From sequence record MT446410.1: DNA of 64,000 bases; one strand, given 5' to 3'. A program made the position numbers and the translations under genes. This document shows positions 9,231 through 60,813 of this stretch, in pieces; position 1 is the first letter of the stretch, and every line of letters starts with the position of its first letter. The notes below the pieces were generated by a model, which saw nothing but the letters and a program-made list of their open reading frames with translations, was not told the DNA's origin and did no database searches. Source of the stretch: Escherichia virus TH38.

Positions 9231-9722
9231 ATGGATAACGCCGCATTGCCACCTGTACAACTAAACTTAAGCCCAGCTGGAATGGAATTCATCATGAAGC
9301 ATGAGGGTATGAGAACCAAGGCTTATAAAGATTCCGCAGGTATCTGGACTATATGTGTAGGGGCTACGCGCGATATGAATGGTTATCCGGTTAGACAAGG
9401 ATTAACGTATTCTATAGAGGATTGTCTAGCTCTGCTAGATAGAGACACACAAGACTCTGTTCGTGCTACTCAGAAGAACATAAAGGTTCCTTTACTAGTT
9501 CATGAGTTTGATGCACTCACTTCTTTCAACTTCAACGTTGGCAGTGGTGCTTTGAGCACATCTAAGTTAAGGAAAGTAATCAATGGAGATGTTAAGGGGG
9601 ATGTTTATTCCGAATTTCTTCGTTGGGATAAAATAACGGTCAAGGGAGAGAAGCAGAGAAGTCAGGGTCTTCATAATAGAAGAGTTGCAGAAGCTAATCT
9701 TTACACCGAAGGTAAATATTAA
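9231..9722 (+). CDS. lysozyme (GH24, T4/lambda-R-like muramidase)
   Basis: EGMRTKAYKDSAGIWTICVGAT catalytic region typical of phage GH24 lysozymes; RBS aaaggagg. Confidence 0.8.
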   Translation: MDNAALPPVQLNLSPAGMEFIMKHEGMRTKAYKDSAGIWTICVGATRDMNGYPVRQGLTYSIEDCLALLDRDTQDSVRATQKNIKVPLLVHEFDALTSFNFNVGSGALSTSKLRKVINGDVKGDVYSEFLRWDKITVKGEKQRSQGLHNRRVAEANLYTEGKY

Positions 9723-13500: not shown

Positions 13501-13565
13501 ATGTTAACAGTAATGCTGCTATCAATGGTTTAACGATAGAGTTTGCTGTTGGCGGGCGGAGATAA
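10548..13565 (+). CDS. large virion structural protein with Ig-like (BIG2) domains
   Basis: 1005 aa; repeated Ig-like segments (VTIRKGGTTTLTAV, ITADNGTKTASCEIV, TATTEEGNRVAVCIV). Confidence 0.55.
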   Translation: MALYPIKSLGAVGVIADQAPTDLAPNAFSNAINARFVEQRVFKTGGNAPLSYVDEDKDLTPLSFISMPFDYYSAGNSFLVVGTDKKLYKLTDESLTDISRKVATVTKKASASIKIYPVVSQIVPKESTISMNFNQTKNLEVSLLPADANNTDLVWEVSNSSYGSITVDPSDSKLATLTSFEKEGNLVVTISTANESVVAQIAVNIIDGDSGIFLSQDTVTIRKGGTTTLTAVTGKTPVTWSSSNASIVSVTPNANSLTAVITANGEGNVTITADNGTKTASCEIVSIPQIDSISLSQSDVTVSRGSQYILTATLSPANAPNQNITWTSSNPNIATVSGTSTQGTINALLAGFTEITATTEEGNRVAVCIVRVDLAGRTMRTSAMAFAAPVSESVETQEEEVVTPPESEETVYFAEPTSGIDTSGMYEGNNFYDYSNVNDIEGFARASLLATPLSSVTLDIVSASLDVGEEIVVTATASPEGEYSYQWSVDKTGYVSTTSVTGKSIKLVALRKGEINVTCTVSQMTQKDYDAFDDYPWYHAVISNCAVATTHYETPQVKEFESEYFVDLPGWGEQTVVDNDGNPSVKKFNWKCERVRSFNNRLFALNMREANASGVTTNYPLRLRWSNFANENKAPTLWDDFAYDRVVSSDLASNIVGQTQALENGYAGYIDLADSNGSLIDILPLKDYLFVYTEFETYIGSPTNNTYQPLMFKKLFNDSGILAPECVVEVEGSHFVVTQNDVILHNGATKKSIASNRVKNMLINEVCLVNPLATRVHLHQDKKEVWVLYVGPGEPKESFACTKAAVWNYEFDTWSFRTIPYAQCIGLVDPPVLERGPIWSDFQEITWDDPSIKELVWRKDATNFRQRVTIVGSFLKGFYQVDVGALDYFYDRLNDVVIEKPLEMRLERTGIDFDNVTNEWNQKHINRFRPQTTGSGTYIFEAGGSQFSNEYGHPHTSKTYTIGVDRHVSVRLNHPYLFYNVIDNDVNSNAAINGLTIEFAVGGRR

Positions 13566-13570
13566 CAACA

Positions 13571-13590
13571 AGGGGCTTCGTGCCCCTTTT
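13571..13590 (+). terminator. rho-independent terminator
   Basis: AGGGGC-TTCGT-GCCCCT followed by TTTT. Confidence 0.6.
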
Positions 13591-13608
13591 ATTGTTTTGG
13601 AGGAACTT

Positions 13609-14577
13609 ATGGGTGCAGGTGGTTTTCGTAAGAATACTGGTCGCAACAACACCACACTCCCGTACAACGTTGGGTTTCTCAATAATGTACAGGACACAGA
13701 AACATATAACGTAGCCGTGTATGATGAATTACAAAAAGTTAGCACAGCTACTAACCAAATGTTCCAAGCTATAGATGAAATTCACGAAGAGATTGATGTT
13801 CGTATTAAAGCTCTTAATGCAATGAATCTACAATTTGATGAGCTTGAGAATAGAATTACTACAGAGATAGAAACAGCTATTGCAGATATCCAAACCCAGA
13901 TGGGGAACCTGTCCACTGAGGACATTTGGGATAATTCTGTTCAACCCCCTGTGAAGCTAGAAAGCACTGTATCTGGTTTTAAGACCAGCATCGAAGGTAA
14001 CACAACTAAAATTCAGACAGTAGAAGGTATTGTTAACGATCAAGGTCAAGAGATTGCTCTTGTTCAGACAGAACTACAAAATATCAACGGAAGCCTTTCT
14101 CAGTATATGAAACTCTCTGAGTATGAAGCTACGTGGGGTATTAACTCTACAGTCAACGGAAGATATGCTGGGGTCAAGTTAACTAATAATGGTACAAACA
14201 GTCAATTCCAAGTAACAGCTAACAAATTTATTGTTGGTGATGGTAGCTCTGGGAATACTCCCTTCGTGTTTGAGGGTGGGCGAGCTAGGATGGAATTTGC
14301 TGATATAAAGAATGTCAATATCACAACAGCTCAGATTGCTAACGCTAGAATCCAATGGGCACAGATCGATAACGTATCCATCTCCAATGCTCAGATTCAG
14401 AACTTGTCAGCGGATAAGATTACTGCTGGCTCTATGTGGGGTTCTAACTGGAGACTTACTGTTGGTGGGGACTTTGTTATGGGTGGCACAGGTGGGGCAC
14501 AATTGTGGATGAATGGTAACAGAATAGACTTCTACGATGGAAGCGGTGCTCTGAGAATCAGGATAGGGAGTTGGTAA
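13609..14577 (+). CDS. tail fibre / tail tip protein
   Basis: Start at ATG 13609 after terminator with RBS ggagg; coiled-coil N-part; C-part repeats NITTAQIANARIQWAQIDNVSISNAQIQNLSADKITAG. Confidence 0.5.
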   Translation: MGAGGFRKNTGRNNTTLPYNVGFLNNVQDTETYNVAVYDELQKVSTATNQMFQAIDEIHEEIDVRIKALNAMNLQFDELENRITTEIETAIADIQTQMGNLSTEDIWDNSVQPPVKLESTVSGFKTSIEGNTTKIQTVEGIVNDQGQEIALVQTELQNINGSLSQYMKLSEYEATWGINSTVNGRYAGVKLTNNGTNSQFQVTANKFIVGDGSSGNTPFVFEGGRARMEFADIKNVNITTAQIANARIQWAQIDNVSISNAQIQNLSADKITAGSMWGSNWRLTVGGDFVMGGTGGAQLWMNGNRIDFYDGSGALRIRIGSW

Positions 14578-14578
14578 T

Positions 14579-15610
14579 ATGGCATACGGAATATGGACAC
14601 AACCAGTAGGGCCGGGGCCAGCAACCCCCGCTCCCTTATTTATTGATAGCGGAAGCACTTTCCCTCAGTTCAAGAATAGTATAAGAGGGAGTTTTAACTT
14701 TAATGGGGCTGGGAGATCTTTCCCTATTAGTGGATGGGATGGCAGTGGTCAGATAGTTATTGTTCCTACCGGTTCTTTATGTTGGCAATGGGAAGTCCCT
14801 CCTAACCTAGTTCCTGATGTTTATTGTGTGAATAATATCTACGTAGAAAACAGTTCCTCTTTTAGAGTTACTCTGAATCAGAACCCCGGCAGTAACCCCT
14901 TATTTGACTGTGGGTTCAACGTATATCAAATATGGCCTAGAGCGGATAGGAATTACGGAATTACCTTTTCTAATACAGCAGACTACTTCTCGATATCTGA
15001 TAGTGGGGTCGTCGGTCAATGTATTTGGGCTTGGCAGGGGACCATAAACAATGCCCTTCAGATACCAAATATCGGTGGGTTCAATATGACCAATGCTGTT
15101 GTGTTTGCTAATTGGTCTGATGGAGGGATAGGACTATCTTATACCTCTGATGACAGGGTTATTCGTGTTTATCAGAACAGACCTTACATAAACGGCAACA
15201 CTAATGAGGGTGGTTCTGTCTTTGCGAGGGTTGCCGTATTCTGTAACGGAGCTGGTGTTCCTGAGCATAATGGAGGTTTGAATATTTACTCTCCGGGTAC
15301 CACGCAATGTGTCTTCTCTACTAACAGAACACCTTTCACTGTTGATACTTTTATAGGCTCAGGAGGTGGTAACACAGGAATGGCATACCCCATGATACCT
15401 CTTACCTCTGGAATAGGTGCAATAAAAGGACAAGGCAGTGGATGGAGATATCAGCAAATGAGATCTCACACCATGAGTGGTTCTACGATAGGAACTGGCT
15501 ATGGAAGGTATCTGTTTCAGTGGGATCAAAATTACGACCTAGGAGCTGACACTGTAGTTAATTTATCAGTTCCTGTAATAAATGCAGCTAAGGTTTTTGC
15601 TGGACTATAA
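14579..15610 (+). CDS. virion structural protein (Gly/Asn-rich, receptor-binding-like)
   Basis: 343 aa; start overlaps preceding stop (taATGg); beta-rich composition. Confidence 0.45.
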   Translation: MAYGIWTQPVGPGPATPAPLFIDSGSTFPQFKNSIRGSFNFNGAGRSFPISGWDGSGQIVIVPTGSLCWQWEVPPNLVPDVYCVNNIYVENSSSFRVTLNQNPGSNPLFDCGFNVYQIWPRADRNYGITFSNTADYFSISDSGVVGQCIWAWQGTINNALQIPNIGGFNMTNAVVFANWSDGGIGLSYTSDDRVIRVYQNRPYINGNTNEGGSVFARVAVFCNGAGVPEHNGGLNIYSPGTTQCVFSTNRTPFTVDTFIGSGGGNTGMAYPMIPLTSGIGAIKGQGSGWRYQQMRSHTMSGSTIGTGYGRYLFQWDQNYDLGADTVVNLSVPVINAAKVFAGL

Positions 15611-27193: not shown

Positions 27194-28679
<1,486 letters not shown>

Positions 28680-28680
<1 letters not shown>

Positions 28681-28940
28681 TATTTTATTCCACGCTCTTT
28701 CAGAGCTTCTAACAATCCATTGTGATTAGCAGCACATTCTGTGTACTGGTCCTGATACCACTCCAACGTAGTGGCTAGTGCCTTTCCTTGAGCACTCTCT
28801 AAAAGAGGTAGGTCAACCCTACATTCAGCTTTTAGGTTTGTTGGTAAGGGCATTGATTGCCTGCTGTTGTCGCTCATTGAACAAGCTGACATACTCATCA
28901 CTAGCGCAGACATTATAAAAAACTGGTTTAGTTTTCTCAT
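28680..28940 (-). CDS. o-spanin-like lipoprotein
   Basis: Start at internal ATG (MRKLNQFFIMSALVMSMSAC...) with signal peptide and Cys; start lies inside 3' end of the i-spanin-like ORF. Confidence 0.45.
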
Positions 28941-29175
28941 AATGCATCTCTTTATAAACGGTTTCCGTGTTCTTCTTCCAGTTAGATATACCGGTAAGAA
29001 CCCTCTGAGCAACTTCATCAGCTGCCCTACTTCTTTCAATCTCTAACTCTTGCTGGTGCTTCTCTTTGTCCAGATTACTGCTATCTGTTCTGTACTCATT
29101 AAACTTCATACCACCAAAGAATACAAGAGCTGAGAAGATAACAAATCCTAGATTATCACTTAAAGTGCTTTGCAT
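28825..29175 (-). CDS. i-spanin-like protein
   Basis: N-terminal TM (LGFVIFSALVFFGG) plus charged coiled-coil; start set to ATG 29175 after terminator. Confidence 0.45.
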   Translation of the reverse strand: MQSTLSDNLGFVIFSALVFFGGMKFNEYRTDSSNLDKEKHQQELEIERSRAADEVAQRVLTGISNWKKNTETVYKEMHYEKTKPVFYNVCASDEYVSLFNERQQQAINALTNKPKS

Positions 29176-29188
29176 ATTGACTCCAACG

Positions 29189-29211
29189 AAAAAAGCCACC
29201 CGGAGGTGGCT
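29189..29211 (-). terminator. rho-independent terminator (- strand) after SSB gene
   Basis: AGCCACC-TCCG-GGTGGCT followed by TTTTT on - strand. Confidence 0.65.
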
Positions 29212-58621: not shown

Positions 58622-58879
58622 TTACTTAAAGATAAAATGCATAACTGCGTCATATGCTTTAAACAGAAGCCAACCTATTGGATAAAAAACTCCTGCCAGT
58701 ATTGAGATAGGCCACAACACAATTAAGAGCACAACCATCATCTCATCAGGTTCAGAGCTGGTAGACCCTGTTGTAATGACCCCTTTTAGTAGACCTTTCT
58801 TGTATAGCAGTTTCAGCACTAAAACAGAAAGGAATACTCCAATAAAGTAAACTGAGATAAAAATATCAAGTAAACCCAT
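58622..58879 (-). CDS. small membrane protein (2 TM)
   Basis: Hydrophobic segments FISVYFIGVFLSVLVLKLL and VVLLIVLWPISILAGVF. Confidence 0.45.
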   Translation of the reverse strand: MGLLDIFISVYFIGVFLSVLVLKLLYKKGLLKGVITTGSTSSEPDEMMVVLLIVLWPISILAGVFYPIGWLLFKAYDAVMHFIFK

Positions 58880-59031: not shown

Positions 59032-59205
59032 TTAACAAGATTGATCACAAGGCTGATCTCCACATGTTTTACAGATCACTGGTGAGTAACTACAGGCAGG
59101 ATATACTGACACCCCATCAAATGTCTCACACCCACAATCAGGGCATGTACCGTTGGATTCCATGTCATCATCGTCATCTACTTCACCGCCACCAAAACAA
59201 CTCAT
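59032..59205 (-). CDS. small Cys-rich zinc-binding protein (57 aa)
   Basis: By-eye ORF with strong RBS aaggag; MSCFGGGEVDDDDD...CPDCGCE...CKTCGDQPCDQSC. Confidence 0.4.
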   Translation of the reverse strand: MSCFGGGEVDDDDDMESNGTCPDCGCETFDGVSVYPACSYSPVICKTCGDQPCDQSC

Positions 59206-59698: not shown

Positions 59699-59862
59699 CT
59701 CAATGTCTTAGGGTTACTGATGAAAGATCTCCTACTGAGTACTCAAGAACCTCTTTCACAGGGTATTCATTCCCTGAAGGTTCTTCGATGTAGACGATAG
59801 CATCTGGACCACAAGTAACAGATAAGTTTTCAAGAGTTCTAATGAGTTCTTCAATAGTCACA

Positions 59863-60162
59863 TTACCACTCCTTACCGGTTGTTGTTACAGAACCGCCAC
59901 ACCACAACGCTGTATCGATCACAACATTGTCTGGCGTAGACTTCTCTTCGTTGATAGAAGGGTTAGCATTAGAGCAGGTTGCCCCGTTGTAGCGCATATC
60001 AATATCACCACTAGGAATCTTGTTTCCTGAATGCCAGCGAGATACACAAATACCATCCACTGCTACTGCACACCACCCATCAGGGCGGCTCTGTACGCAG
60101 CCTGTAAGGGCCACACAGACAAGGAAGATACAGATTAAGGATATTACACCACCCCAACTCAT
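59863..60162 (-). CDS. Cys-rich lipoprotein
   Basis: Signal peptide with lipobox LTGC (ISLICIFLVCVALTGC); 99 aa. Confidence 0.5.
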   Translation of the reverse strand: MSWGGVISLICIFLVCVALTGCVQSRPDGWCAVAVDGICVSRWHSGNKIPSGDIDMRYNGATCSNANPSINEEKSTPDNVVIDTALWCGGSVTTTGKEW

Positions 60163-60182
60163 AATTAACTCCTATTAGATTT

Positions 60183-60260
60183 GGTGGACTATCTGGAATC
60201 GAACCAGAAGCTCACTAAGAAAGTAATTCCCACTGTTATAAAAGCACTTGCCTCAACAGG
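60183..60260 (-). tRNA. tRNA-like element (T-arm plus acceptor 3' strand plus CCA); full cloverleaf not resolved by eye
   Basis: - strand TCTGG-TTCGATT-CCAGA T-arm and ...CCACCA 3' end; no matching 5' acceptor strand found by hand. Confidence 0.25.
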
Positions 60261-60303
60261 GATACACTAACTCTGGTGCCGCACCCATACTAGCCCTAAA
60301 TGT

Positions 60304-60380
60304 GGTGCGCCCTACAGGACTCGAACCTGTAACCAATAGCTTAGAAGTAAAGTTTCTATCCTTGTAATGAAGTTTTCATT
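60304..60380 (-). tRNA. tRNA-like element / possible degenerate tRNA-Arg copy
   Basis: - strand ACAGG-TTCGAGT-CCTGT T-arm, acceptor AGGGCGC-A-CCA, anticodon-loop-like CTTCTAA identical to neighbouring tRNA-Arg; 5' half does not fold. Confidence 0.25.
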
Positions 60381-60381
60381 G

Positions 60382-60456
60382 TGGCGTTCCCTCGTGGAAT
60401 CGAACCACGAATAAGAGCTTAGAAGGCTCCAGTTATATCCGTTTAACTAAGGGAAC
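60382..60456 (-). tRNA. tRNA-Arg (anticodon UCU)
   Basis: Hand-folded cloverleaf: acceptor GTTCCCT/AGGGAAC, D-stem GTTA/TAAC, anticodon stem GGAGC/GCTCT with loop CTTCTAA, T-arm CGTGG-TTCGATT-CCACG, encoded CCA. Confidence 0.7.
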
Positions 60457-60462
60457 ATTACA

Positions 60463-60813
60463 ATGAAAACTTGCACAACCTGTCACACCCAAAAGGAAGA
60501 TTCAGATTTTTACAAGAAAGGAGATCGACTTCATTCTATGTGTAAACAATGCTTCAATGCCTACTGTATTGAACGTTGGAGACAAAGAAAGACTCAAGCG
60601 GTTAAAGATTTCGGAGGTAAGTGTCATGACTGCAACCAAGAGTACCCAGATGCAGTCTTTGATTTCCACCACCTAGATCCCTCTGAAAAAGATTTTGATT
60701 GGAATAAACTTAGACTCCGATCTATTGACTCTATCAGAGAAGAGTTAAGCAAGTGCGTAATGCTCTGTGCTAACTGCCACCGTATTCGTCACATTGATTG
60801 CTCTGTCCATTGA
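60463..60813 (+). CDS. HNH endonuclease
   Basis: CTTCH...CKQC zinc finger and FDFHHLDP...CANCHRIRH HNH motif; only + strand gene within - strand block, next to tRNAs. Confidence 0.7.
   Translation: MKTCTTCHTQKEDSDFYKKGDRLHSMCKQCFNAYCIERWRQRKTQAVKDFGGKCHDCNQEYPDAVFDFHHLDPSEKDFDWNKLRLRSIDSIREELSKCVMLCANCHRIRHIDCSVH

What the first reader, a model, noticed from the sequence alone, without database searches (positions are those of the whole stretch)
59863..60162. Early-region Cys-rich lipoprotein: candidate superinfection-exclusion or receptor-masking factor
The ORF has a signal peptide and lipobox (VALTGC) followed by a ~75-aa Cys-rich mature domain. It is encoded among early genes rather than in the lysis cassette. 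Some phages use early lipoproteins to block their own receptor; that is the basis of the suggestion.
Basis: inference. Interest (0 to 1): 0.4.

Follow-up and report, generated by a model that had tools for sequence, protein, structure and literature searches.

The report
Early phage lipoprotein that likely blocks LptD
This small early gene of a phiEco32/SU10-like E. coli phage encodes a lipoprotein of the Rtp45 family, whose solved member binds the essential outer-membrane LPS exporter LptDE, so it most likely shuts that receptor on infected cells, and a relative of the matching LptD-binding tail protein lies elsewhere in the same window.

Summary
ORF 59863-60162 (minus strand, 99 aa) has a hydrophobic signal peptide, the lipobox L-T-G-C (Cys22) and a 78-residue mature part. 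It lies in the early, leftward gene cluster and equals phiEco32 gene 106 and SU10_0104. It is not part of the lysis genes.

It is a full-length member of Pfam PF24052 (E 4e-34). Its only real PDB relative is 9RPS chain D, Rtp45. Rtp45 is the superinfection-exclusion lipoprotein of siphophage Rtp, solved bound to the periplasmic side of LptDE. The Rtp45 disulfide pair and the hairpin that enters the LptD lumen are conserved (51% identity in the core).

The window also encodes the other two parts of the siphophage LptD module:
- The tail needle carries a gpJ-type tip domain.
- The next gene (14579-15610, SU10 gp19) is a DUF6453 protein. Its model matches one PDB fold, the LptDE-bound receptor-binding protein of phage Oekolampad.

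No held paper names the terminal receptor of these podophages. LptD is now a testable candidate, although gp19 was not detected in SU10 virions.

The lipoprotein is a new member of a known family. No experiment has tested its function in this group.

The parts
59863..60162 (-). Coding sequence of the lipoprotein precursor (99 aa plus stop). It equals phiEco32 gene 106 and SU10_0104.
   Evidence: ORF list and sequence. Pfam PF24052 E 4.1e-34 over residues 3-99, and phrog_4281. Synteny. Purifying selection.
60169..60172 (-). Ribosome-binding site GGAG, 6 nt upstream of the ATG.
   Evidence: Read directly from the sequence.
60100..60162 (-). Signal peptide, residues 1-21 (MSWGGVISLICIFLVCVALTG). 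It has an uncharged n-region, a very hydrophobic h-region and the lipobox L-T-G. Cys22 is encoded at 60097-60099.
   Evidence: PROSITE-type pattern scan and hydrophobicity. Invariant in the close relatives. Cys22 aligns with the lipobox Cys of every family member.
59983..60087 (-). Conserved family core, residues R26-G60 (RPDGWC...C...W..G..IP.G.ID.RY.G). It contains the C31/C39 pair, which equals the Rtp45 Cys30-Cys38 disulfide. It also covers the stretch that aligns with the Rtp45 region from which I infer the lumen-inserting hairpin comes.
   Evidence: Alignment with 9rps_D. Family alignment with C22, G29, C31, C39 and G60 invariant. 51% identity to Rtp45 in this stretch. Structural description in PMC12685063.
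59899..59976 (-). Variable-length insertion bracketed by C63 and C88, a probable second disulfide. Rtp45 and most family members lack it.
   Evidence: Alignments A1 and A2. The Cys pair is invariant in the close relatives, while loop length differs between alleles of 93, 99 and 108 aa. The disulfide is inferred.
14579..15610 (+). Candidate cognate receptor-binding protein (343 aa, equals SU10 gp19). It is a DUF6453 homologue of Rtp44 and of the LptDE-bound receptor-binding protein of Oekolampad.
   Evidence: - tblastn with Rtp44: E 3.4e-10.
- PDB 9rpt_C: E 2.8e-9.
- Pfam PF20051: E 1.9e-23.
- hhalign: probability 98.4%.
- AF2 model: pLDDT 85.6.
- Foldseek: a single significant hit, 9rpt_C, E 2.3e-13, TM 0.82.
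13543..14577 (+). Tail needle (equals SU10 gp18). Its C-terminal domain is of the gpJ 'Phage_Tail_Tip' type, the domain found at the C-terminus of the J-like tail-tip protein, to which the receptor-binding protein is thought to attach in small siphophages.
   Evidence: PDB 7z4b_EA E 1e-210. Pfam PF09327 E 5.7e-27. The same domain is at Rtp43 residues 971-1099. BLAST to the Rtp43 and T1 gpJ C-termini.

Best explanation
The gene encodes an Rtp45-family superinfection-exclusion lipoprotein that acts on the LPS translocon LptDE. The proposed steps are:

1. Host RNA polymerase transcribes the gene early, as part of the leftward early cluster. This is inferred by synteny with phiEco32.
2. The precursor is exported and lipidated at Cys22. 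Because residue +2 is Val, it is sorted to the inner leaflet of the outer membrane. This is inferred from the sequence.
3. Cys31 and Cys39 form the disulfide seen in Rtp45. Cys63 and Cys88 probably close an extra loop. This is inferred.
4. Like Rtp45, the protein docks on the periplasmic rim of LptD next to LptE. It pushes its conserved beta-hairpin up the barrel lumen and displaces extracellular loop 4. Receptor-binding proteins that need LptD can then no longer bind. This is shown for Rtp45 and inferred here.
5. Infected cells and their debris stop adsorbing LptD-dependent phages. These would include the phage's own progeny if the DUF6453 protein next to the tail needle is its receptor-binding protein. 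Competing small siphophages would be excluded in either case.
For: **Family membership**
- PF24052 scores E 4.1e-34 and 116.8 bits over the whole profile. Rtp45 scores E 1.3e-37 in the same family.
- phmmer against the PDB finds 9rps_D (Rtp45) at E 7.5e-14 as the only genuine hit.
- PMC12685063 reports the cryo-EM complex LptDE(M)-Rtp45, its Cys30-Cys38 disulfide, the lumen hairpin and the 20 A displacement of loop 4.

**Conservation of the working parts**
- The lipobox Cys, G29, C31, C39 and G60 are invariant across 21 family members. The W..G..VP.G.vD.RY.G hairpin motif and the C-terminal G-S-V...KEW are present.
- The query is 48% identical to Rtp45 over the mature part and 51% over the core. 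Rtp45 and the Oekolampad protein, both from LptD-dependent phages, share only 43% and 46%.

**Association with LptD-dependent phages**
- Phages in the hit list whose receptor the cited papers report or predict are all assigned to LptD: JeanPiccard and Oekolampad (shown) and Rtp (predicted) (PMC8594841; PMC12685063).
- T1, which uses FhuA, has no DUF6453 gene. Its Cor protein is below the PF24052 cutoff (17.7 against 27 bits) and reaches only 29% hhalign probability against the profile of the close relatives.

**The rest of the module is in the same genome**
- The tail needle has the gpJ tip domain and the next gene is a DUF6453 protein.
- Lipoprotein and DUF6453 homologues occur in about the same number of related podophage records: 89 and 91 at 60% identity or more, against 99 records with the major capsid protein at 80% or more. 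Neither hit list shows the more distant Aeromonas, Proteus or Salmonella prolate podophages.

**It is a real gene, and an early unlinked position has a precedent**
- Purifying selection is evident.
- In Webervirus the homologue also lies among DNA-metabolism genes, about 10 kb from the receptor-binding protein gene.
Against: - No experiment exists for any podophage member.
- For Rtp45, the paper passages I read show binding and a structural rationale. I saw no plating assay in them, and the 2006 Rtp paper is not held.
- The n-region of the signal peptide has no positive charge, so export and lipidation efficiency are unproven.
- The protein carries a 25-residue Cys-bracketed insertion that Rtp45 lacks. 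This could change the docking or the target.
- The gene is 45 kb from the putative receptor-binding protein gene, unlike the adjacent arrangement in Rtp and Oekolampad.
- The AF2 model of the lipoprotein is unusable (pLDDT 41), so no structural comparison was possible.
- Whether LptD is this phage's own receptor is unknown. SU10 gp19 was not found among virion proteins (Supplementary Table 1 of PMC9509320).
Confidence: 0.68

Rival explanations
1. The lipoprotein binds LptDE as Rtp45 does, but it only excludes competitors. The podophage itself would not use LptD. It would finish adsorption on LPS core or another structure through its short tail fibres, and the lipoprotein would keep LptD-dependent small siphophages out of the infected cell.
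For: - SU10 gp19 (the DUF6453 protein) is marked 'no | no' among virion proteins.
- The needle map was fitted with the needle alone (PMC9509320).
- The published models assign terminal recognition to the short tail fibres.
- Lipoprotein and DUF6453 alleles do not co-vary. phiEco32 and Bas91 carry a DUF6453 protein 98-100% identical to the window's, but a lipoprotein only about 73% identical.
Against: - A late-cluster DUF6453 gene directly after a needle that carries the gpJ tip domain is hard to explain if it is not a tail-tip receptor-binding protein.
- That gene is hypervariable (45-100% identity) in genomes whose capsid protein is 93% identical or more, as host-range genes are.
- One to three copies of a 343-aa protein would co-migrate with the 352-aa major capsid protein and could be missed when only major gel bands are analysed.
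- Lack of co-variation is expected, because the lipoprotein binds the periplasmic side and the receptor-binding protein the surface loops.
Confidence: 0.15
2. The protein keeps the family fold but has been retargeted. It would either bind a different outer-membrane protein, or bind LptDE to alter LPS export as a host-takeover function, rather than block adsorption.
For: - The C63-C88 insertion and its length variation (alleles of 93, 99 and 108 aa) are specific to this clade and a few metagenomic relatives.
- The gene sits among host-takeover-type early genes.
- Identity to Rtp45 is only about 50%.
Against: - The part that aligns with the LptD-contacting strand and the lumen hairpin of Rtp45 is the best conserved. 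The variable part is the insertion, which Rtp45 does without.
- The family is small and compact: 17 clusters at 50% identity among 1.84 billion representatives, two of them spurious. Every member from a phage whose receptor the cited papers report or predict comes from an LptD-assigned phage.
- No alternative receptor module was seen in the window.
Confidence: 0.12
3. It is a lysis protein: an o-spanin or a unimolecular spanin.
For: It is a small outer-membrane lipoprotein, as spanin components are.
Against: - The window has its own spanin pair. An Rz-like i-spanin (28825-29199, phrog_1152, E 1.6e-36) overlaps a lipoprotein ORF at 28680-28940.
- The phiEco32 group is listed with a two-component spanin (PMC6139136).
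- This ORF has no adjacent i-spanin and no C-terminal transmembrane segment, and it lies in the early cluster.
Confidence: 0.02

Closest known systems
Rtp45 of Escherichia phage Rtp (PDB 9RPS chain D; Pfam PF24052 'Phage lipoprotein family')
   Same: - Same Pfam family at full length.
- Lipobox Cys, the Cys30-Cys38-type pair, the hairpin motif and the C-terminal KEW are all shared.
- 48% identity over the mature part and 51% over the core.
- The genome also carries a DUF6453 protein and a gpJ tip domain.
   Different: - The host virus is a prolate podophage, not a T1-like siphophage.
- The gene is in the early cluster, 45 kb from the DUF6453 gene, rather than directly upstream of it.
- It has an extra Cys63-Cys88 insertion of about 25 residues.
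- Its n-region is uncharged (MSWGG), against MTNLIK in Rtp45 and MK.. in most other members.
- There are no binding or exclusion data.
Oekolampad (Bas18) lipoprotein bas18_0026 with receptor-binding protein bas18_0025 (PDB 9RPT chain C)
   Same: The lipoprotein family is the same (34% mature identity). The window's 14579-15610 protein is a sequence and fold homologue of that receptor-binding protein.
   Different: Oekolampad's LptD dependence is shown genetically and structurally (PMC8594841, PMC12685063). For the podophage nothing has been tested. Identity between the two receptor-binding proteins is only about 17-22%.
Llp of phage T5 and the Cor lipoproteins of T1, phi80 and N15 (FhuA blockers)
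   Same: The logic is the same: a small outer-membrane lipoprotein with a disulfide binds the receptor from the periplasmic side and makes it unusable from outside. Llp is also expressed early, according to the title of Decker et al. 1994 as cited in PMC8948821.
   Different: - These are different families and a different target.
- T1 Cor is below the PF24052 cutoff and reaches 29% hhalign probability.
- No Llp chain appeared in the PDB sequence search at E up to 10.
- Llp works by long-range allostery in a TonB-dependent transporter. Rtp45 works by physically displacing a loop.
Webervirus (Klebsiella Drexlerviridae) PF24052 lipoproteins, for example in vB_KpnS-VAC8
   Same: Same family (50% mature identity). 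The gene is also unlinked from the DUF6453 gene, lying among DNA-metabolism genes about 10 kb away.
   Different: These are siphophages. They lack the Cys-bracketed insertion, and I know of no reported receptor.
Pseudomonas phage DEV (Schitoviridae): O-antigen first, then LptD through gp54 on a gpJ-like fibre
   Same: It is a precedent for a podophage that uses O-antigen as primary and LptD as secondary receptor, with a gpJ-like carrier (PMC12892993).
   Different: The virus family and host are unrelated. The passages I searched mention no DUF6453 or PF24052 component, and I did not compare the DEV proteins. The resemblance is functional only.

Membership tests
PF24052 / Rtp45-type superinfection-exclusion lipoproteins | The profile HMM match is above the curated cutoff over the full length. 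| tested here: met
   116.8 bits against a cutoff of 27, profile positions 1-80 of 80. phrog_4281 E 4.2e-34.
PF24052 / Rtp45-type superinfection-exclusion lipoproteins | A type II signal peptide with a lipobox Cys. | tested here: inconclusive
   The PS51257 pattern and the position of the Cys are met, and the h-region is strongly hydrophobic. There is no K/R in the first 7 residues. Cys22 aligns with the lipobox Cys of all members. SignalP and LipoP were not available.
PF24052 / Rtp45-type superinfection-exclusion lipoproteins | A conserved Cys pair equal to the Rtp45 Cys30-Cys38 disulfide. | tested here: met
   C31 and C39 align with it and are invariant in 21 sequences. Bond formation itself was not tested.
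PF24052 / Rtp45-type superinfection-exclusion lipoproteins | The conserved hairpin region (W..G..VP.G.vD.RY.G) and the C-terminal G-S/T-V...KEW. | tested here: met
   Alignment A2. 18 of 35 core positions are identical to Rtp45.
PF24052 / Rtp45-type superinfection-exclusion lipoproteins | The protein binds the periplasmic rim of LptDE and displaces extracellular loop 4. | not testable with these tools
   This is known only for Rtp45 (PMC12685063). The AF2 model of the query is unusable, and that paper reports that AF3 predictions of the complex are wrong.
PF24052 / Rtp45-type superinfection-exclusion lipoproteins | The gene lies next to the DUF6453 receptor-binding protein gene, by the gpJ gene. 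| tested here: not met
   The DUF6453 gene is at 14579-15610 and the lipoprotein gene at 59863-60162. Adjacency holds in Rtp and Oekolampad but is also absent in Webervirus, so it is typical rather than defining.
PF24052 / Rtp45-type superinfection-exclusion lipoproteins | A DUF6453 receptor-binding protein is present in the same genome. | tested here: met
   Record counts are similar across the related podophages.
Cor family (T1, phi80, N15; FhuA) | Detectable sequence or profile homology to Cor. | tested here: not met
   hhalign of the close-relative profile against T1 Cor gives 29% probability, largely over the signal peptide. T1 Cor scores 17.7 bits, below the cutoff of 27, on PF24052.
Llp (phage T5) | Sequence homology to Llp, which is present in the PDB in complex with FhuA. 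| tested here: not met
   No Llp chain appeared among the PDB hits at E up to 10.
o-spanin / u-spanin | The gene is embedded in or next to an i-spanin gene (o-spanin), or the protein has a C-terminal transmembrane segment (u-spanin). | tested here: not met
   The spanin pair lies at 28680-29199. The C-terminus ...SVTTTGKEW is polar.

The most novel reading that the evidence does not exclude
LptD is the so-far unidentified terminal receptor of the phiEco32/SU10-like podophages (Kuravirus, Gordonclarkvirinae).

These phages would have taken over the whole LptD module of small siphophages and split it in two:
- The gpJ tip domain is fused to the tail needle. The DUF6453 receptor-binding protein (SU10 gp19) is encoded directly after it and would sit on the needle tip.
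- The cognate exclusion lipoprotein has moved to the early region, so that the receptor is closed soon after infection.

In that case the needle tip, rather than or in addition to the short tail fibres, would make the contact that commits the phage to infection.
Probability: 0.45. Interest if true: 0.75.

Novelty: new member of a known kind. Interest (0 to 1): 0.5.

Why it matters
**An open receptor question becomes testable.** The receptors of SU10-type phages are described as not yet identified (PMC10743462). These phages are described as depending on O-antigen, with the final receptor unknown (PMC11990801). They have broad plating host ranges and resist restriction-modification systems, which makes them of practical interest.

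A conserved Rtp45-type lipoprotein, together with a DUF6453 protein behind the tail needle, gives a concrete hypothesis: LptD, an essential and conserved protein. LptD would be missed by knockout collections, and O-antigen loss dominates the resistant mutants reported for the related phage ES17. In January 2026, phage DEV was called the first podophage proposed to use LptD. If the hypothesis holds, this would be a second, independent case and the first in E. coli.

**The lipoprotein itself is useful.** It is a naturally evolved periplasmic ligand of the LPS translocon, with an extra disulfide-closed loop. That is relevant to work on LptDE inhibitors.

**If the hypothesis fails,** the gene is an ordinary member of a known exclusion family.

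Tried and rejected
1. **AF2 model of the lipoprotein.** With 10 close homologues it reached mean pLDDT 41, too poor for any fold search. PMC12685063 also reports that predictions for this family are unreliable.
2. **Word-indexed homologue search.** It returned only 9 close relatives. The exhaustive profile search found 17 clusters. Two of them (P0014, P0025) are repetitive, eukaryote-like sequences and are spurious.
3. **Designed armadillo-repeat proteins in the PDB search** (E down to 1e-10). I rejected these because each repeat scores E of 58 or worse on its own. The total only sums weak matches over tandem repeats.
4. **The search for related loci.** With the family alignment it failed for lack of a conserved stretch. 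With Rtp45 it returned only 9 Rtp-like siphophage contigs and added nothing.
5. **Promoter and terminator scan of 58-64 kb.** There were fewer promoter-like sites than in shuffles, so it gives no information on expression.
6. **Rfam scan around the gene.** It found only tRNA-Arg.
7. **NCBIfam.** No hit.
8. **The original Rtp paper (PMC1367250)** is not held. What it showed about Rtp45 rests on citations in other papers and on my memory: a predicted lipoprotein with a proposed function.
9. **Spanin reading.** Rejected.
10. **Cor or Llp membership.** Rejected.
11. **Conservation of LptD-contacting residues in the receptor-binding protein.** I did not try to map this. The interface list is in a figure that is not held.

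Full report
**What is at the coordinates.** The ORF is on the minus strand, 60162 to 59863, and encodes 99 aa: MSWGGVISLICIFLVCVALTGCVQSRPDGWCAVAVDGICVSRWHSGNKIPSGDIDMRYNGATCSNANPSINEEKSTPDNVVIDTALWCGGSVTTTGKEW. A GGAG site lies 6 nt before the ATG. Residues 1-21 form a very hydrophobic signal peptide. L19-T20-G21-C22 is a lipobox that fits the PROSITE PS51257 pattern. The n-region has no Lys or Arg, so the additional PROSITE rule is not met. This oddity is invariant in all close relatives. Residue +2 is Val, which by the classical +2 rule (my knowledge) predicts sorting to the outer membrane. The mature part has four further cysteines: C31, C39, C63 and C88.

**Which phage this is.** The 3-kb surroundings match about 100 E. 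coli and Shigella podophages of 75-78 kb, including MN05, EK5, TH06, Bas91, NJ01 and KBNP1711.
- The window's tail needle and nozzle proteins match the SU10 chains 7z4b_EA (E 1e-210) and 7z47_G (2257 bits) over their full length.
- The capsid protein is 98.9% identical to that of SU10.
- Plus-strand genes up to 24.6 kb are the late structural genes. All large genes from 25.8 kb onwards are on the minus strand.
- The ORF corresponds to phiEco32 gene 106 'putative phage lipoprotein', SU10_0104 'putative lipoprotein' and Bas91_0098. As in this window, the phiEco32 and Bas91 genes lie just downstream of a tRNA-Arg; none is annotated there in SU10.
- In phiEco32 the promoters that depend on the phage sigma factor stand before genes 6, 13, 26, 40, 58 and 68. 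The remaining leftward cluster is the early class (PMC8948821). Early expression here is an inference from synteny.

**It is not a lysis gene.** A scan of all ORFs for lipoboxes found two convincing ones. One is this ORF. The other is 28680-28940 (minus), which overlaps an Rz-like i-spanin at 28825-29199 (phrog_1152, E 1.6e-36). That fits the two-component spanin listed for this phage group (PMC6139136). Holin and lysin are SU10 gp14 and gp15 in the late cluster.

**It is a real gene.**
- It scores 116.8 bits on Pfam PF24052 and hits phrog_4281.
- Homologues at 60% identity or more occur in 89 phage records.
- Against the phiEco32 allele dN/dS is about 0.38. phiEco32 and Bas91 differ by six synonymous and no non-synonymous changes.

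**What family it belongs to.**
- A phmmer search of all PDB chains gave one genuine hit, 9rps_D 'Phage lipoprotein' (E 7.5e-14, query residues 6-66). The other hits are designed armadillo repeats in which only the sum over tandem repeats is significant. I reject them.
- According to that paper, Rtp45 binds closed LptDE at the periplasmic membrane interface near strands 5-8, sandwiched between LptE and LptM. Its residues 30-35 form a beta-sheet with LptD residues 318-323. It has a Cys30-Cys38 disulfide and sends a long hairpin up the LptD lumen. It displaces extracellular loop 4 by up to 20 A, which is incompatible with binding of the phage receptor-binding protein.
- In the alignment with Rtp45, these features map onto query C31-D36, C31/C39 and roughly residues 39-60.
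- Across 21 family members the lipobox Cys, G29, C31, C39 and G60 are invariant. The hairpin motif and the C-terminal G-S/T-V...KEW are shared.
- The query is 48% identical to Rtp45 over the mature part and 51% over the core. That is closer than Rtp45 is to the Oekolampad lipoprotein (43% and 46%), and both of those come from LptD-dependent phages.
- The family is small: 17 clusters at 50% identity in 1.84 billion representatives, two of them spurious.

**How this member differs.**
- Relative to Rtp45 it has an insertion of about 25 residues bracketed by C63 and C88. Both cysteines are invariant in the close relatives. Loop length varies, giving alleles of 93, 99 and 108 aa.
- A second disulfide closing a variable loop is the natural reading, but it is inferred.
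- Only a few metagenomic relatives share this Cys pair (P0010, P0011, P0020).

**Specificity of the family.**
- Phages in the hit list whose receptor the cited papers report or predict are all assigned to LptD. JeanPiccard is assigned through resistant lptD mutants. Oekolampad is assigned through Maffei et al., as cited in PMC12685063, and through the cryo-EM complex. Rtp is predicted (PMC8594841; PMC12685063).
- T1, which uses FhuA, has different genes after gpJ and no DUF6453 homologue.
- T1 Cor is below the PF24052 cutoff (17.7 against 27 bits). It reaches only 29% hhalign probability against the profile of the close relatives.
- T5 Llp did not appear in the PDB search.
- This ORF works like Llp and Cor but is not a member of those families.

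**The lead beyond the coordinates.** In Rtp and Oekolampad the lipoprotein gene lies directly upstream of the receptor-binding protein gene, beside the gpJ gene. I therefore searched the window with Rtp44.
- It hits ORF 14579-15610 (plus strand, 343 aa) at E 3.4e-10 over 307 residues.
- That ORF is Pfam DUF6453 (E 1.9e-23). Rtp44 scores 1.4e-113 in the same family.
- It hits PDB 9rpt_C, the Oekolampad receptor-binding protein bound to open LptDE (E 2.8e-9).
- A profile of 30 homologues aligns to that protein with 98.4% probability over 277 columns.
- An AF2 model (pLDDT 85.6, pTM 0.87) has exactly one significant neighbour in the PDB: 9rpt_C (E 2.3e-13, target-normalised TM 0.82).
- The gene immediately upstream (13543-14577) is the SU10 gp18 tail needle. 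Its C-terminal part carries Pfam PF09327 'Phage_Tail_Tip', the same domain as the C-terminus of Rtp43 and of T1 gpJ. In small siphophages the receptor-binding protein is thought to attach non-covalently to the J-like tail-tip protein (PMC8594841).
- All three Pfam families of the siphophage LptD module are therefore present. The lipoprotein gene is moved 45 kb away, into the early region.
- Unlinking has a precedent. In Webervirus the lipoprotein lies among DNA-metabolism genes, about 10 kb from the DUF6453 gene.

**Distribution.**
- Capsid homologues at 80% identity or more occur in 99 records. The lipoprotein at 60% or more occurs in 89, and the DUF6453 protein at 60% or more in 91, with further members at 45-59%.
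- The more distant prolate podophages of Aeromonas, Proteus and Salmonella (capsid 55-57% identical) do not appear in the organism tallies of either hit list.
- These are counts per search, not a per-genome table.
- The DUF6453 protein is hypervariable (45-100% identity) among genomes whose capsid protein is 93% identical or more. This is typical of host-range genes.
- Its alleles do not co-vary with lipoprotein alleles. That is expected if one binds surface loops and the other the periplasmic rim.

**What speaks against the wider reading.**
- In the SU10 structural study, gp19 (343 aa, 'Hypothetical Protein') is marked 'no | no' in the table of structural proteins. It is never mentioned in the main text.
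- The 10-15 A needle map was fitted with the needle alone.
- Only major gel bands were analysed. One to three copies of a 343-aa protein would run with the 352-aa capsid protein, of which there are 715 copies. I consider the negative result weak, but it is the only direct evidence available.

**State of the literature.**
- Reviews state that SU10's receptors are not identified and that the tail needle apparently contacts the cell surface and triggers tail rearrangement (PMC10743462).
- The BASEL study finds strict O-antigen dependence and names no terminal receptor. It annotates the DUF6453 proteins as 'membrane protein'.
- No held paper links Kuravirus to LptD.
- Phage DEV of Pseudomonas was called the first podophage proposed to use LptD (PMC12892993).

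**Verdict.**
The likely target is LptDE.
- As a gene it is a new member of a known family, already labelled 'putative lipoprotein' in phiEco32 and SU10.
- Its value is as one half of a split LptD module. That module makes the terminal receptor of these podophages directly testable.

Noticed in passing
window 14579-15610 (+): This is a DUF6453 protein (SU10 gp19), a homologue of the LptD-binding receptor-binding proteins Rtp44 and Oekolampad bas18_0025, encoded directly after the tail needle gene. Public records call it 'membrane protein' or 'hypothetical protein'. PHROGs files it under 'moron, auxiliary metabolic gene and host takeover' (phrog_1265), which looks like a propagated misannotation.
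   Followed up: yes
window 14942-14998 (+), residues 122-140 of the DUF6453 protein: The only low-confidence stretch of the AF2 model (pLDDT about 40) overlaps part of the most conserved sequence motif of the family (YGITFSNSAD.FSISDSGVVGQC). A conserved but unstructured loop could be a contact site for the needle or the receptor.
   Followed up: no
window 60182-60247 (-), and 60296-60330: Between the intact tRNA-Arg(tct) (60382-60456) and the lipoprotein start lies a degenerate 66-nt tRNA-Arg(tct)-like element, found only with relaxed ARAGORN settings. A further stretch looks like a tRNA 3' half. In phiEco32 the tRNA lies 22 nt from the lipoprotein gene, so this spacer looks like tRNA gene decay or duplication.
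   Followed up: partly
window 60463-60813 (+): An HNH endonuclease ORF (116 aa) lies on the opposite strand to all its neighbours, directly beside the tRNA-Arg. Bas91 has a 'homing endonuclease' at the same place on the other strand, which suggests independent insertions at a hotspot.
   Followed up: no
window 28680-29199 (-): The spanin pair (an Rz-like i-spanin with an overlapping lipoprotein ORF) sits in the leftward, minus-strand gene block, next to the phage sigma factor gene (27573-28220). It is about 19 kb from the lysin (9231-9722) and the holin expected just upstream of it (SU10 gp14), which lie in the late cluster. The lysis genes are split.
   Followed up: partly
window 59032-59205 (-): A 57-aa early ORF is very rich in Cys (10 residues, in CxxC-like spacing) and starts with an acidic run (EVDDDDDME). 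It may be a small zinc-binding host-takeover protein.
   Followed up: no
window 58622-58879 (-): An 85-aa early ORF has two clearly hydrophobic segments, so it is probably a small inner-membrane protein. It could be a second, injection-level exclusion factor.
   Followed up: no
window 59700-59861 (-): The next gene downstream starts with GTG one base after the lipoprotein stop codon. Its AAGGAG ribosome-binding site is formed by the lipoprotein's last codons (K-E-W), which suggests translational coupling.
   Followed up: no
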